Shown: one piece after another, positions 2,370-51,146 of the stretch
Layout: each line of letters opens with the position of its first letter
How positions within the stretch are numbered: the first letter of the stretch is position 1
Assembly (NCBI RefSeq): GCF_964213995.1
Contig: NC_135817.1
Span: 53,382,001 to 53,446,000, forward strand
Length of the DNA stretch: 64,000 nucleotides
DNA from: Mustelus asterias
Taxonomy: Eukaryota
Direction of reading: 5' to 3'
Notes under the pieces: model-generated
The model's database searches: none
The model's input: only the letters and a program-made list of their open reading frames with translations
Told to the model about the DNA's origin: nothing
Translations under genes and position numbers: made by a program

Positions 2370-2472
2370 ATGGAGTACTCTAGAATTCAGACAAATATTC
2401 TACGTTGCCATTTAATTGTCAATGGGACTTATCCACTTTGTTCTTACATTCTCACCACTGTGGTTGTAAATG
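2370..2472 (+). CDS. Gene A exon 1: putative leader exon of a B7/butyrophilin-like gene
   Basis: ATG at 2370 is open to a strong phase-1 donor G|GTGAGT (2473). Translates MEYSRIQTNILRCHLIVNGTYPLCSYILTTVVVN. Phase matches the IgV exon. Confidence 0.6.
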
Positions 2473-2614
2473 GTGAGTGGTAAAGGCTGGACCTGATGTT
2501 GTTGCCAGGGCTCAAAGCTGCTGTTGTTTTATCGGAAGCCTGAAAGGTGGAGTGGTGGTGGTTTTCCCAGCTGGTGAAACCTGTCAGGAGCAAGAAGACA
2601 GGCATGTGCTGTGA

Positions 2615-2910
2615 CAAAAACAGAAAAATGCTGGAAAATTGGGGTGTGGAATGGACTGCCTGCTGTGATAGTGGAGTCGGACACTTTAGGAACTTTCAAG
2701 CGGTTATTGGATAGGCACATGGAGCACACTAGAATGATAGGAGTGGGATAGCTTGATCTTGGTTTCGGAAAAGGTTCGGCACAACATCGTGGGCCGAAGG
2801 GCCTGTACTGTGCTGTACTGTTCTATGTTCTATGTAAAATCTCAGCAGGTCTGATAGCATCTGTGGAGAGAGAGTAGAGCCAATATTTCGAGTCTAGATG
2901 ACCCTTCATC
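2615..2910 (-). mobile_element. Penelope-like pLTR fragment split by a CR1 3' end (about 2641-2835, +)
   Basis: aaaatgctggaaaat | CR1 tail ending in (tatgttc)n | aaaatctcagcaggtctg...tttcgagtctagatgacccttcatc (hammerhead core on the - strand). Confidence 0.7.
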
Positions 2911-3390
2911 TTTGGGCCGTGAGATGTCTTTCATGTGGACTTCTGTGCCTGAATGAAAACCTCTAAATGCAAGTTCGAGTGAAGCACTGGTGTCATAGAG
3001 ACATTAGGGATTTAGGCCAATCAATCCATCAAGTACAAGACAGCTCTAGAAAACAACAGATAGACATGGCAGTGTTGGAGTTAGCTCAAAGCTAGCTCCA
3101 AATGTTATTAAAAACATATTCAGTTACTTACCAACGGCCTACATAGACCAGGAAATTCCTCGGAGCTCATCCTTGTCTGATGTTGTATATTAGCCAGAAA
3201 GTGGAAACCAACTCTGAGGAATTCACGATCACAATCAAACCCATTTATAAGCGAAACAATGTACCTTTTCAACACTTTTTTATAAATGATAGAAATAAAC
3301 AGATCTGATCTGAACAAAGGCTAATATATATTTATGTGAATAATTATTAAAATATTTGTTTTAATAATGGTACTGTCATCCCTTGTGCAG

Positions 3391-3726
3391 AGACATTCAT
3401 TGTTTCCTCTGATGAGGACATTGCTGCAGAGATTGGCAACCATGTCATTCTCAACTGTGCATTTGATAGCCATGGTGACAGTAATCCTACAGTGATCTGG
3501 CAGAAGATAGGTCTGGATCAAACTGTGCACAAGTACAGGGAAAATGAGAATGACTTCAGCGAACAGCACAAAAACTACACCAAGAGAACTGAACTTCATG
3601 GAGTCAACAAAGGAGACGCATCTCTTACACTGAAGAATGTTAATATCTGGGATGAAGGAACCTACAAGTGCAGTGTGTATAATGACAATGGATTTGGTGA
3701 CGTATTAATACATCTATCTGTTTGGG
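3391..3726 (+). CDS. Gene A exon 2: IgV domain, B7/butyrophilin (BTN/HHLA2/VTCN1-like) family
   Basis: Acceptor ttgtgcag| and donor G|gtatgt, phase 1-1. ETFIVSSDEDIAAEIGNHVILNCAF...VIWQK...VHKYRENENDFSEQHKNYTKRTEL...KGDASLTLKNVNIWDEGTYKCSV carries the family-typical Q...Y..RTEL, GDASLxL and DEGxYxC motifs. Confidence 0.92.
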
Positions 3727-3989
3727 GTATGTCATCTGTTTTGCATCTGCATTTAGAATCACTCGGTGTTTAATTATTTTAATTTTTACGCAGGTTTCCA
3801 GTGACTCTAGCGGAAAAGACAGTTTTCATTTCATTTAGTTATTAAGAAAGTTTGTTATGGAATGACAGCAATAGCTTCTAACCTAGATTGCCAAGCAAAA
3901 CAAAAATGAAAATATACCAGATTCTCCTGATGTCCAGGTTGGGCCAATGCTAATTGAAGTTTGGAAGAGTGACAGGTAATCTTATCGGA

Positions 3990-4305
3990 ATATAGAATTC
4001 CTACAGAAGTAGGGCCATCCAGCCCATCGAGCCTGCACCGACAACAATCCCATCCAGGTCCTTTCCCCGTAACCTCATGTATTTACCGTGCTCAACCCTC
4101 TGACGCTAAAGAGCAATTTAGCACGGCCAATCAACCTAACCTGCACATCTTTGGACTGTGGGAGGAAACCGGAGCACCCGGAGGAAACCCATGCAGACAC
4201 GGGGAGAATGTGCAAACTCCATACAGACAGTCACCCAAGGCTGGAATTGAACCCAGGTCCCCAGTACTGGGAGACAGCAGTGCTAATCACTGTGCCACCG
4301 TGCTG
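3990..4305 (-). mobile_element. HE1-like V-SINE, CR1-type tail
   Basis: Same head, core and tail as 1813-2162. Confidence 0.88.
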
Positions 4306-4460
4306 TCCATGTAAAAGGCACGTAAGATTCTGAGGGGGTTTAACAGAGTAGATGCTGTGGGGATGTTTTCCCTCATAGGGGACTCTAGAACTGGTGGGGT
4401 TGGGGGAGGGGGGGGGCACAATTTAAAAATAAAAGGCCTCCCATTTAAGTTGGAGATGAG

Positions 4461-4582
4461 GGGCAGGACTTTACTCGCTTGTCCCAAAACCATAAAACCC
4501 TGCCTGAAGTCAGTGGACCTTCCCATACTCCACCCCTCACTCGCTCGATTCCCGTGGCGAGCGGGCCGATAAAATTCTGGCC
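4461..4582. mobile_element. Short MITE with 3-bp TSD (GAG) inside an old CR1 3' fragment (about 4312-4806)
   Basis: Termini gggcaggacttta...taaaattctggcc; GAG at 4458-4460 and 4583-4585. Confidence 0.65.
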
Positions 4583-5892
4583 GAGGAATCATGAGTGACA
4601 TGAGTATTTTGAATTCCCTTCCACAGAGGACAGTGGAGGTTGAGTTATTGAATGTTTGAAGGCTGAGTTAGAATTTTGATCGATGGAGTCAGGCTGGAAA
4701 ATGGAGCTGAGGCCACAGTCAGATCAGTCATGATCTTATCAAATGGTAGAGCAACCGAAATGGGCCAAATGGGCAATTCCTGCTCCTACTTTTCATTGTC
4801 TTATCATCCTGCACTAGGATCAGGGATTATGCCATTTTTCTCTGGTATTCACTGAAGCTACAGTGGGGGATCAGGAGACTTCAGCCAGAATTTTTACCAC
4901 ATTGCGGGGAATTTTCCCATCCTGCCCGCCATGGAAATCGTAGGGGGGGGGGGGGGGGGAGGAAACCATGGAAAAGTCTGTTGACCTCAGGTGGAATTTA
5001 GTCTGTTGACCTCAGGTGGAATTTTCTGATTTTGGGGCAAGCATGGCCAGAAAATCTCGCCCATTGGCTTTGGAAGATGAAATTGTCAAACTTTATCCCG
5101 GAGGTATTATTGGTTAGAACAATAACACAAATCTGTAATCCAAATTAATCTGTATCCCTGATCCTACTTCCAGCAGTATTGTAAATGAAGGCCAATAATT
5201 TGCATTAAAAAACAGACACCATGGTAGGCAGACAGTGGACCAAAAATAAAAGATAACGATGAAGCAAGAGTATCTGGACAGTTGAGGCACCCGTAGAGGA
5301 AACTGAGAAAGTATAAGAGATTGATCAGATTAAAAAGCCAGCAGGTCAACTCAGAATTGAAAACAGGAGTGCTGTCAAAATATCTTTGGGGTTTATTTAT
5401 AATTTCTACCCAGCGGATGTTATAATTTTTTGAACAAAAATTTCCTAGGTCTTTTCTGGAATGGCCTTCAGCAATTCCTTTAAGGATAGTTAATTAGACC
5501 ATTTCTTGGCTGGTACAAATGGCCTGATGAACACAGAACACATGTCACCTACCCATTTCTGAAAATTGTAAACAGAGTTCTACAAAACACTGCAAGGAGC
5601 TGATCTCCATATTGTAAGATGGCCTTCTCCTGTTTAGGTGAAATTTGTCAGTAGATTTGGGATGATATGGACAGGTTGGTAAAGCAGGAACAAGGCAGAT
5701 CAATTTCACTTGGTAAAGTGAAGTGATGCACGTTGGCGGGAGGGGGTTTTTGAGGGGACTAATATAGGAACACATGCACTATAAATGGCATGATTTTGAA
5801 AAATGCAAATGAGCAGAGAGATCTTAGTAACCAAATAAACAAGTCATTAAAGATGGCACAGTAAGCCGATAAGATGGTTACAAAAAGCATAA

Positions 5893-6432
5893 CTGTACAA
5901 TACTATGTACAGTTCTGGTCACCCTATTATAGAAAGGATATTATTAAACTAGAAAGAGTGCAGAAAAGATTTACTGGGATGCTACCGGGACTTGATGGTT
6001 TGAGTTGTAAGGAGAGGCTGGATAGACTGGGACTTTTTTCTCTGGAGCGTAGAAGGCTGAGGGGTGATCTTACAGAGGTCTGTAAAATAATGAGGGGCAT
6101 ATATCAGCTAGATGGTCAATATCTTTTCATAAGGTAGGGGAGTCTAAAACTGGAGGGCATAGTTTAAAGTGAGAGGGGAGAGATACAAAAGTGTCCAGAG
6201 GGGCAATCTTTTCACACAGAGGGTGATGAGTGTCTGGAACAAGCTGCCAGAGGTAGTAGTAGAGACAGGTACAATTTTGTCTTTTAAAAAGCATTTAGAC
6301 AGTTACATGGGTAAGAGGGATATGGGCCAAATGCGGGCAATGGGGACTGGCTTTGGGGTTTAAAAAAAAGGGCGGCATGGACAAGTTGGGCCGAAGGACC
6401 TGTTTCCATGCTGTAAACCTCTATGACTCTAT
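5893..6432 (+). mobile_element. CR1 LINE 3' end (young subfamily), nested in older CR1 debris (about 5650-7060)
   Basis: Translates VQFWSPYYRKDIIKLERVQKRFT...LERRRLRGDL...FFTQRV; (ctatga) tail; near-identical to 18531-19053 and 62233-62770. Confidence 0.92.
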
Positions 6433-7278
6433 ACTGCTTCTTGGATTTTAAATAGAGTAATATGATATAAAACCAGGGAGATGATGCTGAAAAAATATCA
6501 GTCACTGATTAGGTCTCGCGAATATTGTGGATAATTCTGGACGTGACACTTCAGTAATGATGTAAAGACCTTACAAGGCGTAACAATGGAGGTTTATTAG
6601 AAATGACCAGGAATATGGGATTTTAGTTACAAGGAGAGATTGGAAAATTTAGGGCTATTGTCTTTGGAACAGGGAAGGTAAAGAGGTGACTTAATTGAGG
6701 TTTTCAGGATGATCAGAGGTTTTGATAGGGTAGTCAGAGAAATTAATCTCTCCAGTGAGTGCATCAAAAACCTGAAATCATTGATTTAAAATAATTGGCA
6801 ACATATGTGAAGGTGAGCTGATGAATTATTTTCATTCAGTTGCTGCGATCTAGAATGCTGAACCTAAAAAGGTGGTTGAAGGTGATTCTAAAAATAATGT
6901 TCAAAGGGAGTTGGGCAGGTTGTTGAGGATGTTGAACTTACAGGATTATGGAAAACACAGGAGTATGGAACTAAAAATGACAATTCTTTCAAAGAACTAG
7001 TCCAGGGATGATGGGCTGAATGGCCTCATCTTGTTCTATAATTTTCCACGATTATATGATACCTGCATTTATCCAAAGCTCCTAATTCCAACATAAAACA
7101 CTAAACCCATCCCCTGTAGTTTATTTTTGCTCTGCGGAAAATAGCTTTGGCATTATTGGTCACAGCATGCTTTTAAATACATGTTCTCAACTGTTGTGAA
7201 AGCTGTAATGTTCTGTAATGGGTTACAGGCACATTATCTTTGCGGTTCCTTATATAATGGCATGTTATTTTTCTCTAG

Positions 7279-7566
7279 CACAATGTACTGACGGTATCCA
7301 TATCGTATGGAAATCTGATGGAAATGGCAATGACATGCTGTCTTGCCAGTCTTCAGGCTGGTACCCAAAACCAGAAGTTAGCTGGAAAGATAAGCATGGT
7401 AATGATCTGAATGAGTTTGCTGAAGTAACCCTGACCAGAGACAACAATGGATTTTTCAGTGTTGAACATGACCTGAAGCAGGACCATGATTCAAAGAACC
7501 AGTACATCTGCTCCAAGAAACATCAGTGGATGACAGAACCTCTCCGTGCTCGAGCTGTGTTCACAG
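7279..7566 (+). CDS. Gene A exon 3: IgC domain of B7/butyrophilin type
   Basis: Acceptor ttttctctag| and donor G|gtgggt, phase 1-1. LSCQSSGWYPKPEVSWKD...G...TRDNNGFFSV...YIC matches the BTN/B7 CxSxGWYPxPxVxW signature. Confidence 0.92.
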
Positions 7567-8487
7567 GTGGGTTTTATTTGTGAGATTTATGCTCAGGTTA
7601 ACAGACTAATGTAAAAGTTGTGGAAAACATATCTATCTGTTGGGTAGAGAAACACATCAATAATGTGATTATGGACAAAATAATAATCTGTTTCTTAAAG
7701 TTATTTAAAGACAGGAAATGTGCCATGAAATTGTGCTGTTGACGATACACTGAACACTTAACACAGTTATTGAAATACCTCTGTCTGATACTTTGATAGA
7801 GGCAATGACCTAACAAGAACAAGTATTTGCAGACAGAAAATTATAAGACGTATCAATACTTTTAGAGATAAATTGGGTAAAATTGTTAGGAATTAATACG
7901 TTAGAATTCTTGATATCAATAACTGGATTACACTTCTGTTAAAATAGCAATAAAAATAAAATAAAGAATAATGTTATTAATTTAAATGTATTAGGCCAAT
8001 TTGTTTTAGTGTGGAAGTGATACCCATTGACTGATTTCATCGATATTCTAGTTTTGTAAGGCTATTAGGGTCGCCAAATGTGAAAAATCTTTTGTCTGAA
8101 TGTGACCCTTCTTAATCTGCCAGTTTCCTTGGCTTGAAAGCCTAAGTGAAAAAATTACACAAAACCCAATACAGATTCTTATTTGTTTCAATAAGGAAAC
8201 ATGGAATGATCAAAGAGGGAGGGCATTTTCTACCCATGTTAGAAATCTAGTATCTTTATTTGTGCTGTGTATGAAACTATTCTTGTGAAGGGAAAATCAG
8301 GGAATGTGAGGAGAACCACTTCAGTGCTGGACATAGTAAGAACCTTGTGAGTAAATCAAAGTGTTTTTATTTTTTTTTAAATGGAATCCTCCATAAATAT
8401 TACAATCTGTTCTGCTGAAGTAACTAACTTTTGGATATTTATATTGGCCATAAGAAGCTTTGAAAGAGCACAGAGCCTTTTTCTGTT

Positions 8488-8965
8488 GTTAACATATTCT
8501 TATCTTTATGCCACTATCAGCACCTTCTTTAGTCTTTAACACCACCATTAACGTTTCCTTTGTCTTGTGTCCATGACATCTTTGTTGATCTCTCCTGAGC
8601 TTCCACCTGTCCCTGATCTTCTATTCCGCTCAACACTCTCTACCCCCCTCTCCAACTATACAATCCTTCACATTTCTATCCATCTTCAGCTCTGAATAAG
8701 AGTCACATGGACTCAAAACCATGTGCGGGATTCTCCAGCCGCGCGTACCCCAAGACCGGAAATTCCTGCCCGAGCTCGAACTTTAAATGGTCCACTGAAT
8801 TTTCTGTCTCGCCCACTACCATTCCCACAGCGGTCGAGATGGGAAAATTTCGGCCATTAACTCTGTTCCTCTCTCCACAGATGCTGCCAGACCTGCTGGG
8901 TCTTTCCAGCATTTTCCGTTTTTATTTCAGATTTCCAGCATTTGCAGTTTTTTGCTTTTATTTAA
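8488..8965 (+). mobile_element. Penelope-like 3'/pLTR fragment with an internal MITE (about 8723-8856)
   Basis: Degenerate hammerhead ctgaataagagtcacatggactcaaaac, then ctctccacagatgctgccagacctgctg...ttccagcatttgcag. Confidence 0.65.
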
Positions 8966-9436
8966 AAGGTACTCATTGGCTATGAAGGATTGTTGGTGTG
9001 TTTTTAATTTCCGACAAATAAAATCACATTTTGATGAAGTGTATGTTTCAAGACTTTGGCTGGGCTTCTCCGACGTCACCCACAACTGGGATTATCCAGT
9101 CCCACTGCTATGAACAGAGATTTGGCTGAGCGTCAAATTCTCCATTCTCACTGGCAGCGGTAGCGGGGCATGCAAGACTGGAGAATTCCGGCCTATGTTC
9201 TAGTTGAAATTGCAGCTTAGGAAAAATTGACACTGGTTATTTGAACTGAGGATGAAATAACTCAATGTTACATATGAAATAGGCACCAGAATTTGCAATC
9301 ACTTTAAGTTATCTTGAACACTTTTCTTTGAAAGTGTAAGCCTCTCATGAAAGGACTAGTTTTACACATCACTACCTCATAACACGGCATGAGCTGAAGA
9401 AATACTGACATGTCTTTATCTTTCCTTTACTTTCAG

Positions 9437-9489
9437 ATGGGGGAACCATTGTTCGCATAGATGATGGAAGTCCTCCTTCAGATTTATAA
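9437..9489 (+). CDS. Gene A putative terminal exon (hydrophilic, no TM)
   Basis: Strong polypyrimidine acceptor tctttatctttcctttactttcag|. The phase-1 frame gives DGGTIVRIDDGSPPSDL*. ATTAAA at about 9605. Confidence 0.5.
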
Positions 9490-10579
9490 GTCAGAAGCTG
9501 TTTTATCAAATTGAAGCCTTCAAATATCTTGTCGGAATAATTCTTCATTGCTCACTATGAATTGCAAAGCTTTGCCAAACTGAAACCTGCACATATTGTA
9601 TCCAATTAAAAAATTGTCTGTTGTTTCTTTATAAGTCACTGAATAATTAAGGGATATATTTTTCTTTGGAGAAATTCACTGAGTGATGGAGAGTAATTCA
9701 ACTCTTTCTGTTTTGCAGAAGAAGACAGGTGGTTAGCATTGGAAAATCAATAATTGGAATGGGGGTAGCTCATTTTAAACTGACGCCACATTTCATTGTG
9801 CCCGCAAACAGGTAACCAGCTGAGCTGCTGAAATGTGCAAATTGGGGTCCACAGCTGTTTATAGGACTAGTCGCAAATTCAGGTACAAATTCTCACTGCT
9901 TGCACCATTCAGTTTTCCAGATCTTGAGCTGAGAAGCCACAAACTGAAATGTCAATTTCACCATTTCATTAATCGGAGGGTTGGCTGCCGACTGCCACCT
10001 GCTGCACTTGCTGCCAACTCCCAGGACCCTTCCTCTCCCAGGGTATATAGATATTATCACATCAAAAAATGATTGACAAAAAACTTTATAAAATCCTGTC
10101 TAATACCCGCTGTGCACCCTGTCTTACAAAACAGAGGGTTTTGTATACTCGTCTAGAGTATCTCAGGTGTGTGGAGTTGGTGAATGAGGCAGATTTCTGG
10201 GGGCTATTATATTTTGATTCGCAATCCTGTCAGCGAAGAATGTTCTAAATTGGGTAATACTAACTACTGTTATTTTAAGCAAATAGAGTGGCTTTTTTCC
10301 CTCATCTTTCTCTCTTTCGTTCTTTTGCACTCTGTCACAAGCAAGTTATTTAGTGGAAAAACATTTAAAACCTTTATCATTTTAAGCAGAAGAAACAATA
10401 TTGTCATTTAAGCTGAAGAGGCAAGAATGTCGTTGGCCACTAAAAAGGTGGACTGCATCTGAAATATTAAAGTAATGAAGCCATTCCATTTGTATAAATT
10501 TACAGATATGAAAACCAGCAGTGTGGGTATGAAAACAAGAGTCTTGGGATTCTGATGGACTTCATCACTAAACATTTCA

Positions 10580-10948
10580 TGGGGGAAGGTGATGGCCGAA
10601 TGGTATTATCACTAGATTATTAATCCAGAAACTCAGGTAATGTTCTGGGGACCCAGAACTCCACCATGACAAATGAAAGAAATTGAATTCAATAAAAAAA
10701 AAGTCTGGAATTAAGAATCTACTGATGACCATGAAACCACTGTCAATTGTTGGAACAACCCATCTGGTTCACTAATGCCCTTTAGGGAAGGAAATCTGCC
10801 ATCCTTACCTGGTCTGGTCTACATGTAACTCATGAGAGTAGAGCCACAGCAATGTGGTTGACTCTCAGTTGCCCTCAGGCAACAAGGGATGGACAATAAA
10901 CACTGAGCAGCCAACAACGCCCATGTCCCCTGATTGAATAAAAATAAA
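10580..10948 (+). mobile_element. Second tRNA-derived SINE family; body and tail shared with the LINE at 29850-32345 and 53435-56152
   Basis: A-box-like tggccgaatgg head, then tttagggaaggaaatctgccatccttacctggtctgg...gcaacaagggatggacaataaa...cccatgtccc...gaataaaa. Partial copies at about 13315-13460 and 47055-47193. Confidence 0.8.
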
Positions 10949-11582
10949 TTCAGAAATAGCTGTGGAACATTAGCTCCTGTGCTCATTGTGCAGCCCGAGA
11001 GATAAGAAAATGCTAGTGGAGGCTCATTTGTGAACCAGCAGCTGGGCTGAAACTTGTGACTTTTCCAGAGGTGATAAAGAGGTTTTTATATTGATATTTT
11101 TCTGCAAACAGAAGTAGGAAAAAGCAGCGTCAAAATTTTGTTTCAGTAATTTACTTTGTGATGGAATGTATATTTGTGATTTGCTTTGGTGGTATTTGTG
11201 ACTTATTTGTATTGATTTATAATGAACTAACTAACCCTTGGAGTTATATTGATGTAAGTAGTGCACTGTTATAGTTTGTAAGTTGACCCATGATCCCATA
11301 CATGTTTGTGGTGGCAATTATTAGTGTCCCAACCTGTATTAACAGAGCTCTAGGTCGGGATTTTCTGGCCAAACTGCAGTGGGTTTCGTGCCATCAGATG
11401 TGGTGAACCATTCAAATTTCTAATGACTTTGGCAGGATCTCGCTGAAAAAGGACATTAGCGACTTCTTCCAGCTTTGGCCACTGGGAATTTCGCACCACT
11501 CCTTTCTACACAATTGGGATTCTAAGGTATCAGTAGAAAGACACGGCACAATCTTATCTGCAGTTCAGGCAACACTCCCACT

Positions 11583-12320
11583 GAACAAAGAACAAAGAAA
11601 ATTACAGCACAGGAACAGGCCCTTCAGCCCTCCAAGCACTGACGATGCTGCCGGACTAAACTAAAACCCCTACGCTTCTGGGGACCATATCCCTCTATTC
11701 CCATCTCATTCATGTACTTGTCAAGATGCCCCTTAAAAGTCGCTACCGTATCCGCTTCCACTACCTCCCCCGGCAACGAGTTCCAGGCACCCACCACTCT
11801 CTGTGTAAAAAATCTGCCTCGTACATCTCTTTTAAAACTTGCCCCTCGCACCTTAAACCTATGCCCCCTAGTAATTGACTCTTCCACCCTGGGAAAAAGC
11901 TCCTGACTATCCGCTCTGTCCATACCTCTCATAATCTTGTAGACTTCTTTCAGGTCTCCCCTCAACGTCTGTCGTTCCAGTGAGAACAAACCAAGTTTCT
12001 CCAACCTCTCCTCATAGCTAATGCCCTCCATATCAGGCAACATCCTGGTAAATCTTTTCTGTACCCTCTCCAAAGCCTCCACATCCTTCTGGTAGTGTGG
12101 CGACCAGAATTGAACACTGTATTCCCAGTGCGGCCTCACAAAGGTTCTATAAAGCATCAACATGACTTGCCAATTTTTAAACTCAATACCCCGGCCGATG
12201 AAGGCAAGCATGCTGTATGCCTTCTTGACTACCTTCTCCACCTGCATTGCCACTTTCAGTGACCTGTGTACCTGTACACCCAGATCCCTTTGCCTATCAA
12301 TACTCCTAAGGGTTCTGCCA
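11583..12320 (-). mobile_element. 5'-truncated CR1 LINE
   Basis: 209-aa ORF with YSVQFWSPHYQKDVEALERVQKRFTRM and RGHRFKV; (ttctttg)n tail. Confidence 0.95.
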
Positions 12321-12480
12321 GGTCTGCTGCGAAGTCAGAGGACTTGGCAGCTAGCCAAATTTCCGTTCACTGCAGCGAGATGGGAAAATTCTGCCGGCAT
12401 GAATGGTGGTAAGATTCTGGCCAAAATGTACAATTTTCCACATTTTCCAGTAATGTCTGACAACACAGTTAGTAAAAGTC

Positions 12481-13005: not shown

Positions 13006-13032
13006 TTGATTGAATCCAGTGAATATAAACTG

Positions 13033-13133
13033 AAAGCCAAGTGGCATGGTGACGTGGCGATTAAGATTTTGAAAGTGACTTACCCGACTCCGGAACAGCT
13101 CCAGGCGTTCAAGAACGAAGTGCAGGTTCTCAG
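13033..13133 (+). pseudogene. ARAF: Isolated RAF-kinase (most like ARAF) exon fragment, subdomains II-III
   Basis: [34 protein letters not shown] is the RAF VAxK/alphaC segment. Ends at CTCAG|GTCAGA, the conserved RAF exon boundary. No other RAF exons are in the window. Paralogue assignment rests on QVLR only. Confidence 0.8.
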
Positions 13134-13545
13134 GTCAGACGCTCGCTGTATTCCCGGCTCGGGAAGTGTCGCCGGAACTGAAATCTCAATAAGACCCCCA
13201 CTCTCAGAGTCTTGTGGCGCTGCATCCATCTTACAGGTTGGCTGCAGCAAACAACTGTCGACAGTAGGAGCAGGAGTTAGACCACTCGGCCCTTTGAGTC
13301 TGCTCCGCCATTCGCTGATGTCCTTTAGGGAAGGAAATCTGCTATCATTACCTGGTCTGGCCCACCTGTGGCTCCAGAGCCACAGCAATACGCTTGACTC
13401 TTACATGCCCGCAGAGATGGGCAACAAATGCTGGCCCAGCCAGCGACGCCCACATGCCATGACCCAAAATATGATCGTGGCTGATCTTCTACCTCAATGC
13501 CACATTCCTGCCCTCTCCCCATACTGCTGGAACCCTTTAGAACCT

Positions 13546-19053: not shown

Positions 19054-19054
19054 A

Positions 19055-33065: not shown

Positions 33066-33111
33066 ATGGGTGCAGTTAGAAAGATCCTCAAACTCTGCCT
33101 CTTTGTCTTAG
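33066..33111 (+). CDS. Gene B exon 1: signal peptide
   Basis: GGGATGG Kozak context; MGAVRKILKLCLFVL; donor G|gtaagg; 93-nt intron follows. Confidence 0.88.
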
Positions 33112-33204: not shown

Positions 33205-33540
33205 GACCTGTTGTCGGTCTGAACGTGACTCAGTTTCCTTCAGTTCTGTCCCTCCTGACAGGACAGACAGCTCGAATGAATTGCACCCTGATACCCGGAG
33301 AGGAGCGGGTCTATACGATGAAATATTATTGGTGTAGGGCAAGAGACAACCTGAACATCAGAAGCAACGGATCCAAGAATTGCCTCAAGAAAAACTCTCG
33401 CCTGTCCCCATCTGAGGGTTCACTTGTCATTCGGCAGGTAATTCTGGACGATTCCGACACTTACCACTGCGTGGTTCTTAGAAAGGACCCTCTGCCCTTG
33501 AAAAGCTTTGTAGGAGAAGGAACAAAACTGAACATTCAAG
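33205..33540 (+). CDS. Gene B exon 2: germline-joined VJ-type IgV domain
   Basis: Acceptor gtttcag| and donor G|gtaatt. GPVVGLNVTQFPSVLSLLTGQTARMNC...YYWC...SLVIRQVILDDSDTYHC...FVGEGTKLNIQ. Confidence 0.93.
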
Positions 33541-35123: not shown

Positions 35124-35423
35124 CCAAACCTGAAATCTCTCTCTCTGCGGATCCCCAGAAAGAAATTGTTGGACTTCCATCTCTGATTTGTTTGGCTGCG
35201 GGATTTTTTCCCTGTAATCTGAGCATTTCCTGGATTGTAGAGGGAGTTGTTTTCTATCAAACCGAACCGGGCTCGCTGACAGTAAACAGTGACAGCAGCT
35301 ACAACCTGAGCTCCCGGCTGCAGATTACAGACGCTCACTGGGACCAGGGAGCCGCCGTCATTTGTGAGGTTCAACACATCACACTCTCTGAGCCAGTGAG
35401 GATAAGTTTCAGTGACAGTAGGG
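35124..35423 (+). CDS. Gene B exon 3: C1-set Ig domain
   Basis: Acceptor ttgttcatttag| and donor G|gtaagt, phase 1-1. AKPEISL...LICLAAGFFPCNLSISW...NSDSSYNLSSRLQI...W..G..VICEVQHITL matches the C1 signature (CxxxGFxP, CxVxH). Confidence 0.93.
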
Positions 35424-41781: not shown

Positions 41782-41886
41782 GTGTTTCCAAGTACTATTA
41801 CTTCAGCCTGCTAGGTCTTATCCTAATTGTACCAGTTTGCCTTTGGATCATTAAGAGTTTGTGCTGTAAACTGAAGAATGGAAAAG
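41782..41886 (+). CDS. Gene B exon 4: transmembrane exon
   Basis: Acceptor taatttcgaag| and donor G|gtaatt, phase 1-1. GVSKYYYFSLLGLILIVPVCLWIIKSLCCKLKNGK: uncharged hydrophobic span followed by a basic stop-transfer and CC. Confidence 0.8.
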
Positions 41887-42019
41887 GTAATTGGATAAAA
41901 TACATTTTATTTTGTAACTTAATTGTATTAATTAATTTGTATTGAAAATTGTATTTAAATTCTACACTAAATAATTCCAACAAAAAATAAGTAAAAACCA
42001 TCATATTCCCACAGGCAGT

Positions 42020-43215
42020 AAGAGTTCAGGATAGTAGATGGTTGGCCATTTGGAAAAGTAGGAAGGAGCAGGAAGTGCAGGGCTCCTTGGTGTGTGTGGC
42101 ACTCTCAAACTGGTACTCAACACTGGAGATTACTGGGAGTAACAACATCTTGAAAGAATGCAGTCCAGACCATGGCACCAATGGGTGCCAATGTGAGAGA
42201 ACAGCAAAGAGGTTTTTAAAAATTCATTCGAGTCATGGGCATTGCTGGCTAGGTCAGCATTTATTGCCCATCCCCAATTGCCCTTGAAAAGGTGTTGGTG
42301 AACTGCTGCAGTCCATTTGGTGTAGGTACACTCACAGTGCTGTTAGGGAGGGAGTTCCAGGATTTTGAGTTTGTTAGAGAGGCAGATTCCATAGTGAGGT
42401 GGATGGGCAGGCAAGTCTACAATTGCCATCCTGAGTCTCACATAGTGTATTGCCTCTCTGGTGCCAGAAGAAAGGACATCATGAAAAGGATGAAGAATAT
42501 GCTGCAAGGAGAAGCGAGTAAGCCAAAAGTTGTCGTACATTTCAGCATTAATGGTAGTGAGGGCAGGTATTGACGTCTTATAGTCATATTTTCAGAAGTA
42601 CAGGATTGCTTCCAGTGTTTGTGCAAATGATGGTAGAAATAAGAAGATAGGAAGAATGAATGAGTGGCTTGAGGCGTGGGGTAGGATGGAGGACTTCAGA
42701 TTCTTGGGGCATTGGAACTAATCCTGGAGCAATAAGACCATATTCAACAAGGACAGGTCATATCTCCATAAGACCAGGACTAATGTACAGGGATGTACAC
42801 CAGTGTGATTGGAGAGGGTTTAAACTGAGTTTCCAGGTGGATAGGCAGCAGCATATACAAGTGTAAAAGAGAAAAAAGATGTATTCATGAGACTGTTGGG
42901 TGGTACCAGGGAAGAATGTAGTACTATATTAGATTGGAGATGACTAAGAAGAATTACAAGGAATACAAATACAGACTAAGAATGCATGTTCGTAAGCATA
43001 CAAAGTTGGTAAATAAAGTTGATGAGCTAGAAGCACACACAGCCATGTGGGAATACGATGTAGTGGCAATATCAGAATCATGGCTTAAAATGGTGAGGAC
43101 TGGGTGCTTCATATTTATGGATATAAATTGTTCAGAGAAGATAGGGAAGTGAGACAGGGAGATGGGGTGGCAGTACTGAACAGGGAAGACATTGCAGTTT
43201 TGGAAAGAATAGGAT
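42020..43215 (+). mobile_element. Decayed CR1 5' region (ORF1 esterase and start of ORF2), with a LINE 3' fragment inserted at about 42210-42370
   Basis: VALSNWYSTL, VYCLSGARRKDI...VVVH and NKVDELEA...YDVVAISESWL. Confidence 0.7.
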
Positions 43216-44300
43216 GATTGAAATTCAGACTGAAATGCTTGGTGCAATGGTAGGCTTGTCAATGTCAAGGAGCATGGAGGTGTCTGGCATCAATTTGTAT
43301 AGCATTTTGTGCAGAGCCTGGCGTCCTTGCTGTCCAGTGTGAAAGTAGTGACCAATTCCATGGAACGCCTGTGTAGTCATTCATGATCCAGTATCTAATG
43401 CCTGATGTCTCAGCCTCTATTGCAGCACAAATAGAAACCATTCAACCTTCAGATTCTGCAATGAAAGGTCAGAATTAAGTCATGCAAGTTCAGTTTGCCA
43501 TCACACAGGCTCAGAATGCTACCATCAAAGCTACAGATACCAGCGTTGAATGAGGTTTTCAGTGTGTCACATCCTTCATCACATTGCTAGGATTGTTGAG
43601 GCTGCAGGAGAGGGCAGATTTCGGTGGGGACCTCCTTAGTGAAGTGGAGATGTTAAACATATTGTTTCTTGATGAGGTTTAGGTAGAAAAATGCTCCCTG
43701 AACACTCTGAGTAAATATAGCTCCTCCTGCTGAGAGACCGTGTCCTTCCTCTTCCTGCAGTTTTTCCTGCTCTGTGTCGCCTCTGCTCATTCTCCCTGTC
43801 ATGCAGTAGGCTAAATAGGAGACAAAGTAATGCACACATGCGTGGAAGCAAGTGTTTATGAAGAATCCTTGGCAGTCGGAACCATATGCCACCCCATTTA
43901 ACAACTTGACCAAATCTGAAAACTACCAAACACTTTCCAACTACTGGTAGAAATCAATCAGCGACCAACCTGCAAGTAGTTGATTATTTCTTAAGAACCT
44001 TCTGTTCCTAAACACATGTTCAGTTGGGTGAGAGGTGGTCTAGTTGGAGTGTTGACCTCCAAACTGGCAGCACTGTGTCAAATCAAGGTTACAGTCTGAT
44101 TAGCATCACAATTCGCCTTTAATGCATGTTTTTGTTGGATGTCTTGGTGTAATTAGCACCAGTGGTGTGCATGCAAACAATTTAGAGGAGGAGACAAATT
44201 TTACAGTTATAGACTATTTTTATTGTTGCATCTCATTACATACACCACTATACAAAATGTTACTCTAAGATATTTCTAATGTTGATGATATACTTAACAG

Positions 44301-44371
44301 ATTCATCGATCCATGGCAAAAATGTTGGTAATCAAATAAATGAAATATCAATGCATGAGTCAGCAAATGAA
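44301..44371 (+). CDS. Gene B exon 5: cytoplasmic linker
   Basis: Acceptor acttaacag| and donor |gtaagt. Phase 1 in, phase 0 out, exactly bridging the TM exon to the last exon. DSSIHGKNVGNQINEISMHESANE. Confidence 0.7.
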
Positions 44372-44599
44372 GTAAGTAAATTGTTTTGATTTTTTTCTAC
44401 ACAGTATGGACACATGCTGTGCTGAACTGAATGCATTATGAAGTATTGTCAACTTAATTAAATAATTTGTTAACACAATACACTGGGAACACAAAGGGGT
44501 CAGCATATCTCGTATCAATGGACTGTATTTTGTTTACCACCGGGGTATTAAGGGAATACAGCAAGAAAAATTGGGTGTGGAGGATCACATCACTTCCAC

Positions 44600-45160
44600 A
44601 GGGCCTACCCATTTTCCCTTTCAGCACGAGCTTCAGATGTGTGGCCAAGGCTGAATCCCTGAGGAGCAGGTTGTGCCACAAATGTCCCACGTGAAGCTAC
44701 CATTGTACCATTGTATGTTGCTGTATTCAGCGTTGGCATCTGTTGTCAAGCCAGTGTAGCCACTTGTCATCACAGTGACAAGTACCAGCTTACAGGAGAT
44801 GGTGCCATTTTCTTCTGCCATTAGTAAGTGACTCCTAGTTGTGACAATCAATGTCTAAGGCTTCATGTCACCCTTGAAGTGGAGCTCTGGAGATGTCCTA
44901 CGGGTCATCTGGCTCTGCCTGCCTCACCACACAGAGATGCTTTGGGTACACAATCATCTTCCATCGTGAGGGTGTGCCTGTACCAATAAAGCTGCCTCTG
45001 TGTAAAGAGCGCTGACAAACTTGGGAGCTCCGCCTTTGAGGAGATTGCTACCTTTGTGACTTTGTGCTGCCAGGATATACCCATAATGCGGACAGTGAAG
45101 ATGGAAATTGTTGAACTTCTTTTCTTGACAGCTGTAAGTCTTCCACACAATCAGGTGCAC
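44600..45160 (-). mobile_element. RTE-clade LINE remnant
   Basis: NNFHLHC / IMGISWQHKVT...LPSLSALFTQRQL.W..H...MEDDCVPK..LCGE. Confidence 0.7.
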
Positions 45161-45514
45161 ATAATTAGGTGAATAAACAGACTTTTAAATGTAACTAAAG
45201 ATTTCTTTCACAAATTTTTAAATGTGAACTGAGCTCCCAGCATCCAGTCTAGGTTGTAATGAGCTAATATAGGAAAAGCTATCTATAAATTAGAAACTTT
45301 CCAGAATGAGGTTGTCCAGGCACTATTGATATTTACAAATAGGTCAGATTTAGAAGCATTTATAAATTTATTTGTACTGTTTTCAAATTGATATTTTAGG
45401 ACTAATGTTGATAAAAGACTGAGGCCCACTTGTCTTTTATTCAGTGTTTTGTTAATCTGGGGGATTGCTGGATTGGGGTGATGAGGAAAGATGTCTATTT
45501 GTCCACTACTTAGG

Positions 45515-45833
45515 GTGGCACGGTGGCACAGTGGTTAGCACTGCTGCCTCACAGCGTCAGGGACCCGGGTTCAATTCCAGCCTCAGGTCACTGTCTGTGT
45601 GGAGTTTGCACTTCCTCCCCATGTCTGCGTGGGCTTCCTCCGAGTGCTCCGGTTACCTCCCACAGTCCAAAGATGTGCGGGTTAGGTTGATTGATCATGC
45701 TAAATTGACCTTAGTGTCAAGGGGATTAGCCGGGTAAATGAGAGTTACGGGAATAGGGCCTGGGTGGGATTGTGGTCGATACAGACTCGATGAGCGGAAT
45801 GGCCTTCATCTATACTGTAGGGATTCCATGATC
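45515..45833 (+). mobile_element. HE1-like V-SINE, CR1-type tail
   Basis: Family consensus motifs. Confidence 0.9.
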
Positions 45834-48800
45834 TAAAATGTATTTCATCCTAGCTCATTTGGCTCTCAGTCAGAAAATGTTAGCATTGCAAAGATTACAA
45901 ATCACCAATAACTGAGGATTATTCTCTGAAATATGAATCAACACCGAGTACTAGGAATTTGCATTGGATCTCAGCCTTTTCAACTAATTATATCCAGACG
46001 TAAAATTATGAATTGCAAGACTTCAAAAAAAACCCTTTATTTCATTTGGCTACACCACCTGCTTCAGTTGAGTGACAGTGTTGCTGTTGGATACTAACTC
46101 GCCACAATGGTACATGTGGGAAGCAAAGTTACCAGAATTTGGCAAAGTGACAGTTGTGGTGACAAAAACGGTGGGATTTCTCACAGGATTTTGACTTTCT
46201 TTAACAATTTTCTTTTTCTCAATATGAATCACACTGCATTTGTGGCGGCCTCCTGCCGATTTGCTCACCCCAGAGTAACTTAAACACTGCAATCAGTGAA
46301 ACGCTCCATATAAATGTCTTCCCAGCACTTGTTCCAGTTCCATTGGACAGGATGGCTGCCAGGAAGCCAGCATCTCAATTCTTAGAGGGATGGATGGTGT
46401 GCAGCAGATGCGGGATGTCCTCAATCCACGGTCATTCAGAATTCCTTCCAGCAAGGTGATCACCCCCGCCTCGGAGGCATGTTCAGCATTGTGGAGTCAT
46501 GCCAGAGCTCAGAGTCCTCATGCTCTTTGAGAAGACAGCATATGAGCTGGCTGGGGAGGAGGAAAACCCTTTGCTGATAATGAGTCCTATGAGGCTCTAG
46601 CATCTGTGGTGCTGCTCCCACAACAGCTACAGGCCCAGCCTCCCCCTCATCTGAATTGAGTCCATGATTCTCCAGAATCATGCACTGAAAAGAGGCGAAT
46701 ACCACAGAAAGCTATGAGGATTCCTAACAGAGCCCTGATCCTCGTCCCTCAATGCCTATGGGACTTCCATCCTCGTGGTCCCCACTTAGTGAGTGCCTCT
46801 CCACTATCCCTCATAACCTCCCCTCAGACTATAGACACATCCCCACATTTGCCTCTTTCAGCAGGATTGACTCGTCAAGGAAGTGCTTGGTTATTGTTTT
46901 GGCAACTGGCTTCCTCTTATGGCTGACAAGGTCACTGATAAGACTGCAATTAGTATGTGGAGCACATTCCTAGAGGACACCTCATTCTCCCAGGCCACAA
47001 GGGCTGTAGAGATAAACTACCTTCCATCAGCCACAGCCATACACACCAAGATTTTCCTTACCTGGTCTGGCCTACTTGTGACTCCAGAGCCACAGCAATG
47101 TGGTTGACTCTCAACTGCCCTCGGGCAACTAGGGATGGACAATAAATGCTGGCCAGCCAGCGATGCCCATGTCCCATGAATCAATAAAAAAAACTAAGAC
47201 CTCCCCCCCTGTGCCCTAGGAAACTGCCCTCACACCAAAACACAACATGGGAGCTCAGAGTGGAAACCAGTACTGACCTTCTGCATTCCTCTCATGAAAC
47301 CCAAAATCAAATTCACACAAAGGTAAGGCACCCACTCTGCATGGAATGGAAAAGCAGCCAACCAGGGAGGACACGGGAGGTGCTGCCTGCAAACCAGCCA
47401 CCGGACTCCTTTGAGGCAGGGAACACCCCGAGATGACTGGAAGGTAGGGTTCCAAGGGACCTTTCCCTCTGAAATTGTGTGACTAAACCCGCTATCCCCA
47501 AGTTACACTTATCTGCATCCCCCATGTCCTGTACTCCCAGAGCCTTGAGCAGCCTATATGGTGATGTCCTCCTGAACGCTCACCTCCGAAATCCCCCTCA
47601 TAGGTAAAGGTGCCAGGTTCACTCTTTTACAGAGCAGTTGTAAATCACGCTGGCATGACGTCACTCTGGCCCCCTATGAATATTCCGCGAGGGGTGAAAA
47701 CCCCGTGAGAGTGCCTGATAGTGAGATGCACATGTATTAAAATGAGCTCCTCACCCTTCCTTGGTGTGATGTACATTACTCCGCCGGAGAAGGGCTTTGA
47801 AAATTGCATCGCTCGAATACGCCGGTGTGAATCGCACTTTTCCAATCTTACGGCATTTGGACACCACTCCGGAAAACAGACACATGGAGAGTTTTGGGCT
47901 CAAAAATCGCTGTGTATTGTACATCACGCCCATTTCATGGACTACTTTATTTTAGATTGCTACTGAACCTGAACTATTAACAACCGTTCGTTGAAGTTCC
48001 GTTGGTTTTTTTAAAACGTCAATTTTCGCTCCACTGGACCTGAAGGCATTTAATTACACTTGGGATAGTTCCGAGGTCACACTAGCTGTCACATAACTTG
48101 GCCTTTCTTAAGCTGCTAGTGTAGGCAATGAACATCACTGAGAATATTGTTTGACCAAAGGGGGCTTCATGATCACATTCAGTCATGTGAGTGCGTGCAC
48201 AAACACATACTTACTCGTCAACAGAGATCACTAGGAGCCATTCAGAAGTACAAAGTATTTTCTATGCCTAGAATAGTCGTACTAAGAGTGCCTCCATTGT
48301 CCCAGTACCTGGCAGATAGAAACCAGGGAATCAAAACTGAAATCTTTCACTTGGATTAAAAACATTGGGCGAGGTGTCACCCAATAACCCATTACTCAGT
48401 GTGTTGCAGGAGACACTGATTGAGGTAGATTGTGTCTCTGGCCCATCTTGGGCAGCTAGTGCTCTGCAAATGCAATAGCACCAGCAAAAGGAGTGATCGA
48501 TTTCAAAAACTGGGTCTCACTCACTGAAGTGCAATAGTTGAACTGTTGACAGCAATCATGGTCCTTATACGGAGCACACTGTTGGGAGGTAGAGGCAAAC
48601 TTACAATAAACTCACTGTGCTTAGGCACCGAGCTCCAACAACCATGCTGGCCAGTGGCTGTGAGAGCACCAATCAGAGCTTGGTAGCTCAGCATTTGCTC
48701 ATAGGCTCATTTATATTTCTTGAGCCTATCAGCAGGCAATGCAGAGCGACATTGGACTGAGTGGTTGAGCCCCCTTAGAGCATGGGACTCAATTAAAGTA

Positions 48801-50894
48801 ATGTTTTACTCAATCCCAAAGAAATCCTAGAGTTTGGATCATGGCGTGAATTGACAACAGAGGGGAAGGTGTGGATGTTGCAATCACCCAGTGAGATTTC
48901 AGAAGGGCAATTCCAGAAACCCAGGCGGCAAATAGGTGCGGACCATCCATTGCCAATGCTGTCCCTAATTTCCATACAGCTGTCGAGCCTATTCCAGGCA
49001 GCTCTGTCCGGCTCCCAGTCACTCCTGTGCTACCTTGTCTCCATGAGTCACTGGGATGGCCGTGAGTGTCTAGTTTCAGCCCAGCACTGGCTCCCAGCCC
49101 AGCATGGCCGAGCAGGATGACAAGACCCTCAAAGATTTCTTCACCAAAAGAGACAAGAAGAAAGACAAAACCAAACTGGCCGAGGTTGGGTACAAAGACA
49201 GTCTGGCCAAAGCCAGTGTCGACTGAGGCCTCCATCCCAATCGATGCCTTGGCTCCGGATACATCCCTGCCTGCAGCATTGCTGCCACTGACATCTTCCT
49301 TGCTTTGGCTCCTGCCAAAGCTATGCCATTTACAGTCCCTGTAATGGCCAAGAAAGTGAAGAAGGAAAAAGAGTGGATGGTGAAGAGCTGGTGTCAGGAT
49401 TCCCAAGGAGCGGGTCAGGAAGGATGACGACTGGAAGGAGCTTGACTTGAGCAAATGGAATTTGACCTGGAGCAGCTCATTGAACATGGAGTTGGGGGCT
49501 GGGCTGAAGACGGACCGTCCCAGCTCAGTGACTCAGGGACAGCATTGTGCAGGGGGGGGTCAGGAGCTGGTCAGAGCCACCCAGAAGTTGATTACAGTGG
49601 CTTTGAGAATCCATGCCTTACAAATTAGTGATGAAAGAGAGGAAGAAGATCAGGGTGAAGATGGTGGAGAATATCTTGGATACAGAAGGAGACAAGACAG
49701 TCGGGCTCTGAAACAAGATAACTCCAGCACCAGCATCTGTCATTGCGGTTGCATGGACACCAGAATCATTAGCGAACTCCTGCAGCCAGATCGGGTAATG
49801 TGATCACAAGATCACAATCACAAGAACCACCAGAAATTTACAACGACGTCCAGTTTCTATCCCTACTAGCTTCTGCAAAGCATGTAGAAACCAGAAAAGA
49901 TAAAGAAATGGAAAGGACCTTTGAAATGACGAAATGCAGAAACAGAGCCAGAGAGGACTTTTTCTGAATATGGCACTGGAGTCAGCGTACCGCCTCGCAC
50001 AAACTCACACATAGAGAGAGAGAGGGCCCAGGCTCACAGAACCAATGGTTCTAAAGGTCAGTCCGTTCAGCTAGAATTTGGCACCAATTTGTTCTTGGGA
50101 GCAGTAAATGTTGGTATATATTTTACAGACAGCTCTGCGTTGCTCTGTGTTCCATCCCAGGTAACTAATCTACATTGAGGGTGGGGCGTGACACCATTGG
50201 GGATGGGGCATGACACGAATGTGGCAGGGCATGAGACCACGGAGGTTGCGAACATGACATAATTGGGGGTGGGGCGTGACGCCATTGGCATGGAGTATGA
50301 CATAATCGGGGTGGGGCAGGCTCTAGAAATGAAGGTGAGCACGGGCGCCACAAAGTATAAGTCCACCGCTATCAGGAGGGTCCCTGGTCCAGCAGCCTGC
50401 TACCCCTTAGAGACATCCCATAGTCCTGAAAGGCAAAGTTCACTTTGGAAGGTGTGCACAGTTCATTACTGACATAATAAGCAGCATGACATTGATTCTC
50501 CAATACAGCTGTGGAGGGAAAATGTGGAACAGGAAGGAATGCCTTCAAATATCCTGGCAAGTCAGCCAACAACAGTGGAGAGGGCTGTCTGTGCATATCA
50601 AGCACTGATTTCAGTGAAATGAAAATCAGACAGGATCATTAAAGAGTCTATGATCAAGATATGATCAAGACTATAATCAAGACACTGAAGTCAGAAATGG
50701 ACAGTTTAGTTGATTGCCATTGGATGTTTGCTGTGGGTTTCAGTTTATTGACATTTCTATGCGGCTTTGCATTGAACAACAGGAAGACAAGCATTTATGC
50801 TAAGTTAAGGTCAGGCCAAAATTTGAAAAATAACTACTTTATAATGAATCAATCCTCTTTGTTCTTACCGTTGTTTCTTATTACAATGTTACAG

Positions 50895-51146
50895 AGTAGC
50901 ATTTACTTAAGCAGTGAAACTCAGCATTACGCGTCTATTCATATCAAAAATCCTTCAAAGAGGAAGCAAAAGCGGGAATTGAAGAAGGCAGAGCAGGACC
51001 AAACAACTGAATATGCAGTTTTAAAGGTCAGAGATAAAAATAATCCATTCTATGAAGATTCAGCACAATATTCTACTGTTGGCACATCGAACAGAAGGCA
51101 GACTGCTAACTACAATGCAACCACATATGCATCGCTTAAGAAATAA
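50895..51146 (+). CDS. Gene B exon 6: cytoplasmic tail with four Tyr-based inhibitory/switch-like motifs
   Basis: Phase-0 acceptor gttacag|. SSIYLSSETQHYASIHI...TTEYAVLKV...AQYSTVG...TTYASLKK*. Confidence 0.85.
   Translation, partial: SSIYLSSETQHYASIHIKNPSKRKQKRELKKAEQDQTTEYAVLKVRDKNNPFYEDSAQYSTVGTSNRRQTANYNATTYASLKK

What the first reader, a model, noticed from the sequence alone, without database searches (positions are those of the whole stretch)
2370..51146. B7/BTN-like ligand gene directly upstream of the VJ-C1 inhibitory receptor: candidate linked ligand-receptor module
Seen: the only two host genes recognised in the window are same-strand neighbours about 23.5 kb apart, separated mostly by repeats. 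Known: B7/BTN IgV-IgC proteins are ligands for single VJ-type domains (B7-H6/NKp30, PD-L1/PD-1, CD80/CTLA-4, BTNL/gamma-delta TCR V). Inference: the pair may be a physically linked, co-evolving ligand-receptor (or soluble modulator) system preserved in cartilaginous fish. Adjacency alone does not show binding.
Basis: inference. Interest (0 to 1): 0.7.

Follow-up and report, generated by a model that had tools for sequence, protein, structure and literature searches.

The report
Shark B7-H4 beside paired antibody-like receptors
This shark gene for a likely secreted form of the immune checkpoint ligand B7-H4 sits beside an antibody-like, likely inhibitory receptor that has a likely activating twin nearby; the neighbourhood is likely ancient, and whether ligand and receptor bind each other is an open, testable question.

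Summary
Both genes are real and intact, same strand, 23.6 kb apart; the ligand's true first exon lies before the window. Gene A is the positional B7-H4/VTCN1 orthologue (between CD101-, TTF2-, TRIM45- and MAN1A-like genes) and lacks a membrane anchor in 12 of 12 shark proteins. Gene B (germline VJ-C1, four tail tyrosine motifs) is one half of a paired receptor: an inverted twin 100 kb upstream shares its ectodomain but has an arginine-bearing membrane helix. Twins recur in two more sharks and a sawfish, with ectodomains homogenised within species. A and B share a chromosome in 6 of 6 sharks checked. No A-B cassette repeats locally, but a sister cluster 17.5 Mb away joins three PPP-loop VJ-C1 genes to an HHLA2-like gene. 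Best reading: an old inherited neighbourhood, with receptors likely tracking other ligands; a linked ligand-receptor pair remains possible (about 0.2). The scan noted a neighbouring VJ gene and a separate paired VJ-C1 family elsewhere, not this pair. Key papers on VJ-C1 genes were not held.

The parts
3391..3726 (+). Gene A (B7-H4/VTCN1-like) IgV exon; its leader exon lies before the window at G000:C17:53381069-53381117
   Evidence: AG/GT, phase 1; V-set; best single-domain PDB match B7-H4
7279..7566 (+). Gene A IgC exon (BTN/B7-type C domain)
9437..9489 (+). Gene A last coding exon: 17-residue hydrophilic tail and stop, no membrane or GPI-type stretch; ATTAAA at 9605
   Evidence: same tail type in 12 of 12 orthologues
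33066..33111 (+). Gene B leader exon (split leader, phase 1)
33205..33540 (+). Gene B germline-joined VJ exon (FG loop YxCx6-PLP-x5-GEG); 94% identical in DNA to the inverted twin
   Evidence: joined to C1 in a same-species contig
35124..35423 (+). Gene B C1-set exon; 99% identical in DNA to the twin
41782..41886 (+). Gene B membrane exon, no charged residue in the helix
44301..44371 (+). Gene B first cytoplasmic exon
50895..51146 (+). Gene B last exon with four Yxx[ILV] motifs (QHYASI, TEYAVL, AQYSTV, TTYASL)
51518..51696 (+). Decayed second copy of gene B's last exon (stops, frameshift)

Best explanation
Gene A is likely the shark B7-H4 (VTCN1) orthologue, made as a likely secreted two-domain protein, and gene B is likely the inhibitory member of a paired germline VJ-C1 receptor; they are neighbours likely because an old cluster of VJ and B7 genes was inherited together, not because A is B's ligand. 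Shown: gene models, no anchor in A, gene order, the inverted twin with an arginine-bearing helix, species-wise homogenisation of the two ectodomains while the two helix types keep their own lineages. Inferred: B recruits SH2-domain phosphatases through its tail tyrosines; the twin signals through an ITAM adaptor chain; the pair reads a shared, fast-changing ligand (host or microbial), as other homogenised opposing receptors do; soluble A acts on leukocytes through a receptor encoded elsewhere.
For: Synteny: EWI-type V exons (53.203-53.219 Mb), SNF2 helicase motifs (53.277-53.295), twin, RING/B-box (53.320-53.324), VJ gene, A, B, GH47 mannosidase (53.589-53.703), matching the human PTGFRN-CD101-TTF2-TRIM45-VTCN1 block (PMC11565109, abstract), so A's place needs no receptor to explain it. 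7 of 9 A hits are named VTCN1 or VTCN1-like plus one by UniRef; 1 is unnamed. Pairing: inhibitory and activating-type ectodomains are 89-100% identical within 3 of 3 species with both full sequences and 54-72% between them; a clade of activating-type ectodomains is rejected (p-AU 9e-45), the pattern described for opposing receptors of fast-evolving ligands (PMC3210942, abstract). B and its twin differ most in the V exon (19 of 336 bases against 6 of 439 in leader, intron 1 and C1; Fisher p 0.0015; 12 residue changes, mostly in loops). The PxP loop motif is kept in only 5 of 9 species and lost in the twin. No V-V rate covariation once near-duplicate species are dropped. A was found without a B hit in 4 carpet-shark records and a sawshark, B without an A hit in 4 batoids (weak, search-limited).
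Against: The linkage is kept in 6 of 6 sharks with both records. A second cluster at C17:70.77-70.96 Mb again puts three VJ-C1 genes beside a B7-H4/H7-type gene, and there 2 of 3 carry E-I-P-P-P, the CD28H hallmark, while CD28H binds B7-H7 (PMC11599192 section 15). B's own loop has the CD28-family register YxCx6-PxP-x5-GxG in 5 of 9 species and in a caecilian relative. Homogenisation is also reported for NKR-P1, whose ligands are linked self proteins (PMC3210942 abstract; PMC11695704 passage), so pairing does not exclude A as ligand. dN/dS between B and twin V exons is about 0.9, not above 1. By sequence alone A is not uniquely B7-H4: the 70.95-Mb gene scores higher against the B7-H4 structure (78 bits against 53).
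Confidence: 0.6

Rival explanations
1. A is the ligand of B (and of its twin or the third VJ gene): a genetically linked checkpoint module in which soluble B7-H4 binds the VJ domain through its PxP loop, braking cells through B and tuning them through the activating twin.
For: Linkage in 6 of 6 sharks; CD28-type loop register in 5 of 9 species; a parallel cluster with E-I-P-P-P loops beside an HHLA2-like V-C-V gene; linked receptor-ligand pairs exist (NKR-P1/Clr, PMC11695704 passage; CD2/CD58 and CD200/CD200R, recalled); the B7-H4 receptor is unidentified in mammals (PMC11109181 passage).
Against: Loop motif lost in 4 of 9 species and in the twin; no robust rate covariation; one A against three neighbouring VJ genes; patchy co-occurrence in searches; known B7/CD28-family pairs are unlinked in humans (recalled); B has a C1 domain, which CD28-family receptors lack (PMC11599192 abstract).
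Confidence: 0.2
2. A is not a free extracellular ligand but a secretory-pathway resident or cis partner (for example held in the ER by its conserved acidic-Leu end, or carried to the surface bound to a membrane protein such as B).
For: The last residue is Leu in 12 of 12 orthologues and the one before is Asp or Glu in 11 of 12, which recalls ER-retrieval ends; BTN-family ectodomains form cis heterodimers (PDB titles).
Against: The ends (SDL, PDL, PEL) do not fit the KDEL consensus (recalled); a conserved N-glycan site and signal peptide fit secretion equally.
Confidence: 0.1
3. The adjacency is a recent, species-specific accident.
For: B and its twin are inverted repeats around A, so the interval could flip; an assembly gap lies between twin and TRIM-like gene. 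Direct gene order was read in one genome only.
Against: Same chromosome in 6 of 6 species, neighbouring accession numbers in 2; twin pairs on one chromosome in a horn shark and a sawfish.
Confidence: 0.04

Closest known systems
B7-H4 / VTCN1 (B7 family)
   Same: Signal peptide, IgV, IgC; position beside TRIM45-, TTF2-, CD101- and MAN1A-like genes; best single-domain PDB match (4gos); NCBI name.
   Different: No membrane segment in 12 of 12 shark proteins, whereas B7 members are described as transmembrane (PMC11109181 passage); flanked by VJ receptor genes that the human block lacks (recalled); function untested.
SIRP family (SIRP-alpha inhibitory, SIRP-beta activating)
   Same: Germline VJ plus C1 ectodomain, four tail tyrosines, paired inhibitory and charged-helix forms; top feature matches in the Atlas for homologue P0006; PMC12975943 abstract.
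   Different: One C1 rather than two (two in a stingray); Arg near the outer end of the helix rather than the Lys/DAP12 type (recalled); V profile is closer to TCR-alpha, VL, VNAR and CD8-beta than to SIRP; CD47 binding not tested.
PRARP / tetrapod VJ-C1 genes; UrIg, UrIg2
   Same: Non-rearranging VJ exon, split leader, C1 domain (PMC12227049 parts 1-3; PMC10751288 passages); UrIg2 is among the top PDB matches.
   Different: UrIg is secreted with three C1 domains and UrIg2 has nine, in the MHC or Ig/TCR complex; B has one C1, a helix and a tyrosine tail at the VTCN1 locus. Orthology to PRARP could not be tested: those papers were not held.
CD28 family (CD28H/TMIGD2, CD28X) with B7 ligands
   Same: FG-loop register YxCx6-PxP-x5-GxG; B's nearest genomic V hits carry IPPP/EIP loops.
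   Different: Family is defined by a single IgV; B has C1, and the motif is variable.
Genetically linked receptor-ligand pairs (NKR-P1/Clr, NKp65/KACL; CD200R/CD200 recalled)
   Same: Ligand-type gene among paired opposing receptors.
   Different: There binding is proven; here only linkage is known.

Membership tests
B7 family (gene A) | Signal peptide + IgV + IgC ectodomain of B7/BTN fold | tested here: met
   Pfam V-set + C2-set_3; model pLDDT 76 matches BTN, B7-H6, PD-L1 ectodomains
B7 family (gene A) | Membrane anchor | tested here: not met
   No hydrophobic stretch (max 19-residue hydropathy 1.2) in 12 of 12 orthologues; 0 candidate phase-1 membrane exons in 7567-33065
B7-H4/VTCN1 orthology (gene A) | Conserved position next to TRIM45, TTF2, CD101, MAN1A2 | tested here: met
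   Motif and family hits in that order; flanking names rest on recalled motifs plus position; human block from PMC11565109 abstract, MAN1A2 recalled
B7-H4/VTCN1 orthology (gene A) | Closest sequence relative is B7-H4 | tested here: inconclusive
   Best single-domain PDB match is B7-H4 (53 bits), after four-domain CD276, but the 70.95-Mb gene scores 78 bits; no tree with tetrapod B7s
Butyrophilin (gene A) | Membrane helix and cytoplasmic B30.2 domain, MHC-type location | tested here: not met
   Protein ends 17 residues after IgC
Paired opposing receptors (gene B and twin) | Near-identical ectodomains, one tyrosine-motif tail, one charged helix with short tail | tested here: met
   Arg in 4 of 4 activating-type helices (twin, P0018, P0171, P0050); the twin's exon after the helix was not located
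Paired opposing receptors (gene B and twin) | Within-species homogenisation of ligand-binding domains | tested here: met
   Tree groups by species in 3 of 3 pairs; p-AU 9e-45
Paired opposing receptors (gene B and twin) | Opposite signalling (phosphatase versus adaptor) | not testable with these tools
   Needs cell assays
SIRP family (gene B) | V-C1-C1 ectodomain | tested here: not met
   One C1 in sharks; two in P0020/P0169 only
SIRP family (gene B) | CD47 binding | not tested
   No test run
CD28 family (gene B) | Single extracellular IgV | tested here: not met
   C1 domain present; definition from PMC11599192 abstract
CD28 family (gene B) | Conserved proline motif in the FG loop with GxG | tested here: inconclusive
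   PxP in register in 5 of 9 species, never PPP
PRARP / VJC1 genes (gene B) | Orthology by synteny and tree | not testable with these tools
   Ohta 2019 not held; Fu 2019 not in search results
Linked ligand-receptor pair (A with B) | Conserved linkage | tested here: met
   Same chromosome 6 of 6; direct adjacency read in one genome, hinted in two more
Linked ligand-receptor pair (A with B) | Co-evolution | tested here: inconclusive
   Partial r 0.48, p 0.04 with 6 species; 0.17-0.26, p 0.26-0.33 with 5
Linked ligand-receptor pair (A with B) | Physical binding measured | not testable with these tools
   Needs a bench assay

The most novel reading that the evidence does not exclude
Early jawed vertebrates had genetically linked checkpoint cassettes, each joining germline VJ-C1 receptors with a proline FG loop to a B7-H4/H7-type ligand. 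Sharks keep two on one chromosome: soluble B7-H4 with its inhibitory and activating VJ-C1 receptors, and HHLA2 with EIPPP-loop VJ-C1 receptors. Gene B would be the first identified receptor type for orphan B7-H4 and a bridge between CD28-type receptors and the antigen-receptor precursor.
Probability: 0.2. Interest if true: 0.85.

Novelty: new variant of a known kind. Interest (0 to 1): 0.5.

Why it matters
The receptor for B7-H4, a cancer drug target, is unidentified (PMC11109181 passage). A shark locus with an anchorless B7-H4 among three germline VJ receptors gives a short, concrete list of candidates to test. Even without binding, it shows an opposing receptor pair of antigen-receptor build kept and homogenised since the shark-ray split, and two parallel VJ-C1 + B7 clusters that bear on where CD28-type receptors and antigen receptors came from.

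Tried and rejected
Complex prediction of A's and B's ectodomains: no answer (score 0.28, mark 0.34; alignments not used); it is no evidence either way. Structure prediction of B failed (pLDDT 32) and was not searched. Run search: no RNA holder listed, no evidence on expression; tissue co-expression of A and B was not tested. Single-gene reading (A's domains spliced onto B): rejected, each has its own leader and stop. Leader at 2370: rejected. Membrane exon for A: none found. Local repeat of the A-B cassette: none in 464 kb. Homologue search with the third VJ exon found nothing among longer proteins; its helix exon was not pinned down. Family searches for TRIM45 (filamin, B-box) and TTF2 (GRF) did not list the local genes; motif scans did. 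IFT57, a human neighbour of HHLA2 (recalled), is on another chromosome, so the HHLA2 label for the 70.95-Mb gene rests on its V-C-V build. Accession-number distance is a weak proxy: the adjacent genes of this genome are 661 apart. Literature: ten searches showed no description of this locus; Ohta 2019, Flajnik 2012 and Ohta & Flajnik 2015 were not held, Fu 2019 did not appear; these may describe such genes. The elephant-shark supplement had no hit for VTCN1, B7H4, B7-H4 or HHLA2; supplements of PMC11599192 and PMC12227049 were not read and may list these genes.
Full report
1. What is there. The window is G000:C17:53382001-53446000. Two intact genes lie on the plus strand. Gene A has a leader exon just before the window, then 3391-3726 (IgV), 7279-7566 (IgC) and 9437-9489 (17-residue tail, stop). 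Gene B has exons 33066-33111, 33205-33540 (germline VJ), 35124-35423 (C1), 41782-41886 (helix), 44301-44371 and 50895-51146. The spliced models equal NCBI proteins P0008 (from its second Met) and P0001, both labelled Mustelus asterias and on a contig of the same length as C17. One contig of a coded same-organism run joins B's V and C1 exons with no differences (X18). An unnamed 1,026-base contig encodes a whole A orthologue with the short tail (P0009), which, given a 10-kb gene here, implies a spliced transcript (inference).

2. Gene A. It folds like B7/BTN ectodomains. Its V exon matches four-domain CD276 and then B7-H4 best. Going along C17 one meets EWI-type V exons, SNF2 helicase motifs, a RING/B-box gene, A, and a GH47 mannosidase (motifs recalled, names by position). 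[quoted passage not shown] So A is the positional B7-H4. All 12 orthologous proteins examined lack a hydrophobic C-terminal stretch and no alternative helix exon was found before gene B: A is likely secreted. By sequence alone the assignment is not unique, because a V-C-V gene at 70.95 Mb scores higher against B7-H4; VTCN1 and HHLA2 form one cluster (PMC13262535, passage) and HHLA2 is IgV-IgC-IgV (PMC11119147, passage).

3. Gene B is half of a pair. Its V exon finds a copy 89% identical in protein at 53.313 Mb on the opposite strand and only three distant V domains. The copy shares leader, V and C1 but continues into a different helix exon with Arg near its outer end. The same two forms occur in horn shark (P0019/P0018), sawfish (P0170/P0171) and, as fragments, cloudy catshark (P0052/P0050). 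In the 3 species with full pairs, V and C1 are 89-100% identical within species and 54-72% between; the tree of 10 ectodomains groups by species and rejects an activating clade (p-AU 9e-45), while inhibitory helices are 59-85% identical across species. This is the domain-restricted homogenisation described for opposing leukocyte receptors (PMC3210942, abstract). Between B and its twin the V exon differs more than its flanks (19 of 336 against 6 of 439; p 0.0015), though dN/dS is about 0.9. B's tail has four Yxx[ILV] motifs; other sharks and rays show textbook ITIMs, this species two TxYxxL and two drifted motifs. Inhibition and activation are inferred from motifs, not shown. A scan of 1.84 billion representatives gave 4 close full-length relatives, all cartilaginous fish, then weaker hits including sturgeon, paddlefish and caecilian proteins of like build. 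The V profile is nearest TCR-alpha, VL, VNAR and CD8-beta; the Atlas puts homologue P0006 near SIRP-like clusters.

4. Is the adjacency conserved, and is it a cassette? A and B (or twin) are on contigs of identical length in 6 of 6 sharks for which both had records; accession numbers are 1 apart in horn shark, 5 in basking shark, 39 in white shark, about 270 and 620 in two others, and 661 in this genome where the genes touch, so only the small gaps inform. A appeared without a B hit in four carpet-shark records and a sawshark, B without an A hit in four batoids and a chimaera; both searches are word- or cluster-limited, so this is weak. The A search gave 21 B7/BTN-like V loci, only one at this locus. 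One other lies 33 kb from a VJ hit: at 70.77-70.96 Mb three VJ-C1 genes precede the V-C-V gene, the outer two inverted with near-identical C1 exons. Two of the three carry E-I-P-P-P, the loop of CD28H, the receptor of B7-H7 (PMC11599192, section 15). B's loop has the same register with PxP in 5 of 9 species. So 'VJ genes around a B7-H4/H7 gene' occurs twice on this chromosome: a pattern, though common descent from one old cluster explains it without binding.

5. Co-evolution. With six species the A-V/B-V partial correlation was 0.48 (permutation p 0.04). It fell to 0.17-0.26 (p 0.26-0.33) when either of two near-identical species was dropped, and other domain pairs did as well. No support remains.

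6. Mechanism. Most likely (0.6): A is a soluble B7-H4 at its ancestral place; B brakes leukocytes through tail tyrosines and its twin activates through an adaptor, both reading a shared, changing ligand; the genes are neighbours by descent. Rival (0.2): A is that ligand, as in linked NKR-P1/Clr pairs (PMC11695704, passage), which would name a receptor type for B7-H4, whose receptor is 'not yet identified' (PMC11109181, passage). Lesser rivals: A is an ER-resident or cis partner (0.1); chance adjacency (0.04).

7. What is known. Germline VJ genes are a recognised set (CD79, NITR, SIRP, CD8, NKp30, PRARP; PMC11599192, section 23); UrIg and UrIg2 are shark VJ-C1 genes of different build and place (PMC12227049, abstract, parts 1-3 of 8 and passages; PMC10751288, passages). 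SIRPs are the nearest working analogy (PMC12975943, abstract). Ten searches showed no account of this locus, of an anchorless shark B7-H4, or of the sister cluster, but the papers most likely to cover VJ-C1 genes were not held. PMC12675332 (passages) added nothing; other listed papers were seen as listings only. Earlier scan notes describe the neighbouring VJ gene, a separate family of about 56 paired VJ-C1 genes elsewhere and another receptor-B7 neighbourhood; these are unchecked leads, and my pairing result was reached before them.

8. Verdict. Observation largely right, interpretation half right: old linkage yes, simple co-evolving two-gene module no evidence. New variant of a known kind; interest 0.5, rising to about 0.85 if binding is found.

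Noticed in passing
G000:C17:53306269-53313624 (minus strand; L028-L029): Open twin of gene B with an Arg-bearing helix; with B it forms an inverted repeat around the TRIM-like gene, the third VJ gene and A, so the interval could invert. A 200-base assembly gap lies at 53318890.
   Followed up: yes
G000:C17:70767104-70959973 (L072-L077, L061-L065): Sister cluster: three VJ-C1 genes with PPP loops (two with EIPPP), the outer two inverted with near-identical C1 but V domains only 49% alike, followed by a V-C-V B7 gene (HHLA2-like).
   Followed up: partly
G000:C17:53354627-53355145 (L033): Third germline VJ gene with its own split leader, single copy in the genome search, no C1 exon seen; helix exon not pinned down here.
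   Followed up: partly
window 13045-13134: Isolated 30-codon kinase-exon fragment (RAF-like by recalled motif), 97% identical in protein to G000:C17:65049-65138, inserted beside a LINE piece; likely a captured fragment.
   Followed up: partly
window 51518-51696; G000:C17:53313706-53313825: Decayed copies of B's last exon and of a V exon, relics of further local duplications.
   Followed up: partly
P0003, P0004: Annotated isoforms of B in two sharks skip the membrane exon, which would give an unanchored form.
   Followed up: no
P0112: A chimaera protein model joins a different V domain (CD2/CD58-like by eye) to B's helix and tail; an annotation fusion or a real domain swap.
   Followed up: no
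P0045, P0054, P0077: Sturgeon, paddlefish and caecilian proteins share B's build, helix pattern and ITIMs (27-34% identity): possible bony-vertebrate orthologues, synteny unchecked.
   Followed up: partly
window 9437-9489: A's tail ends in acidic residue + Leu in 11 of 12 sharks, with a conserved DDG; role unknown.
   Followed up: partly
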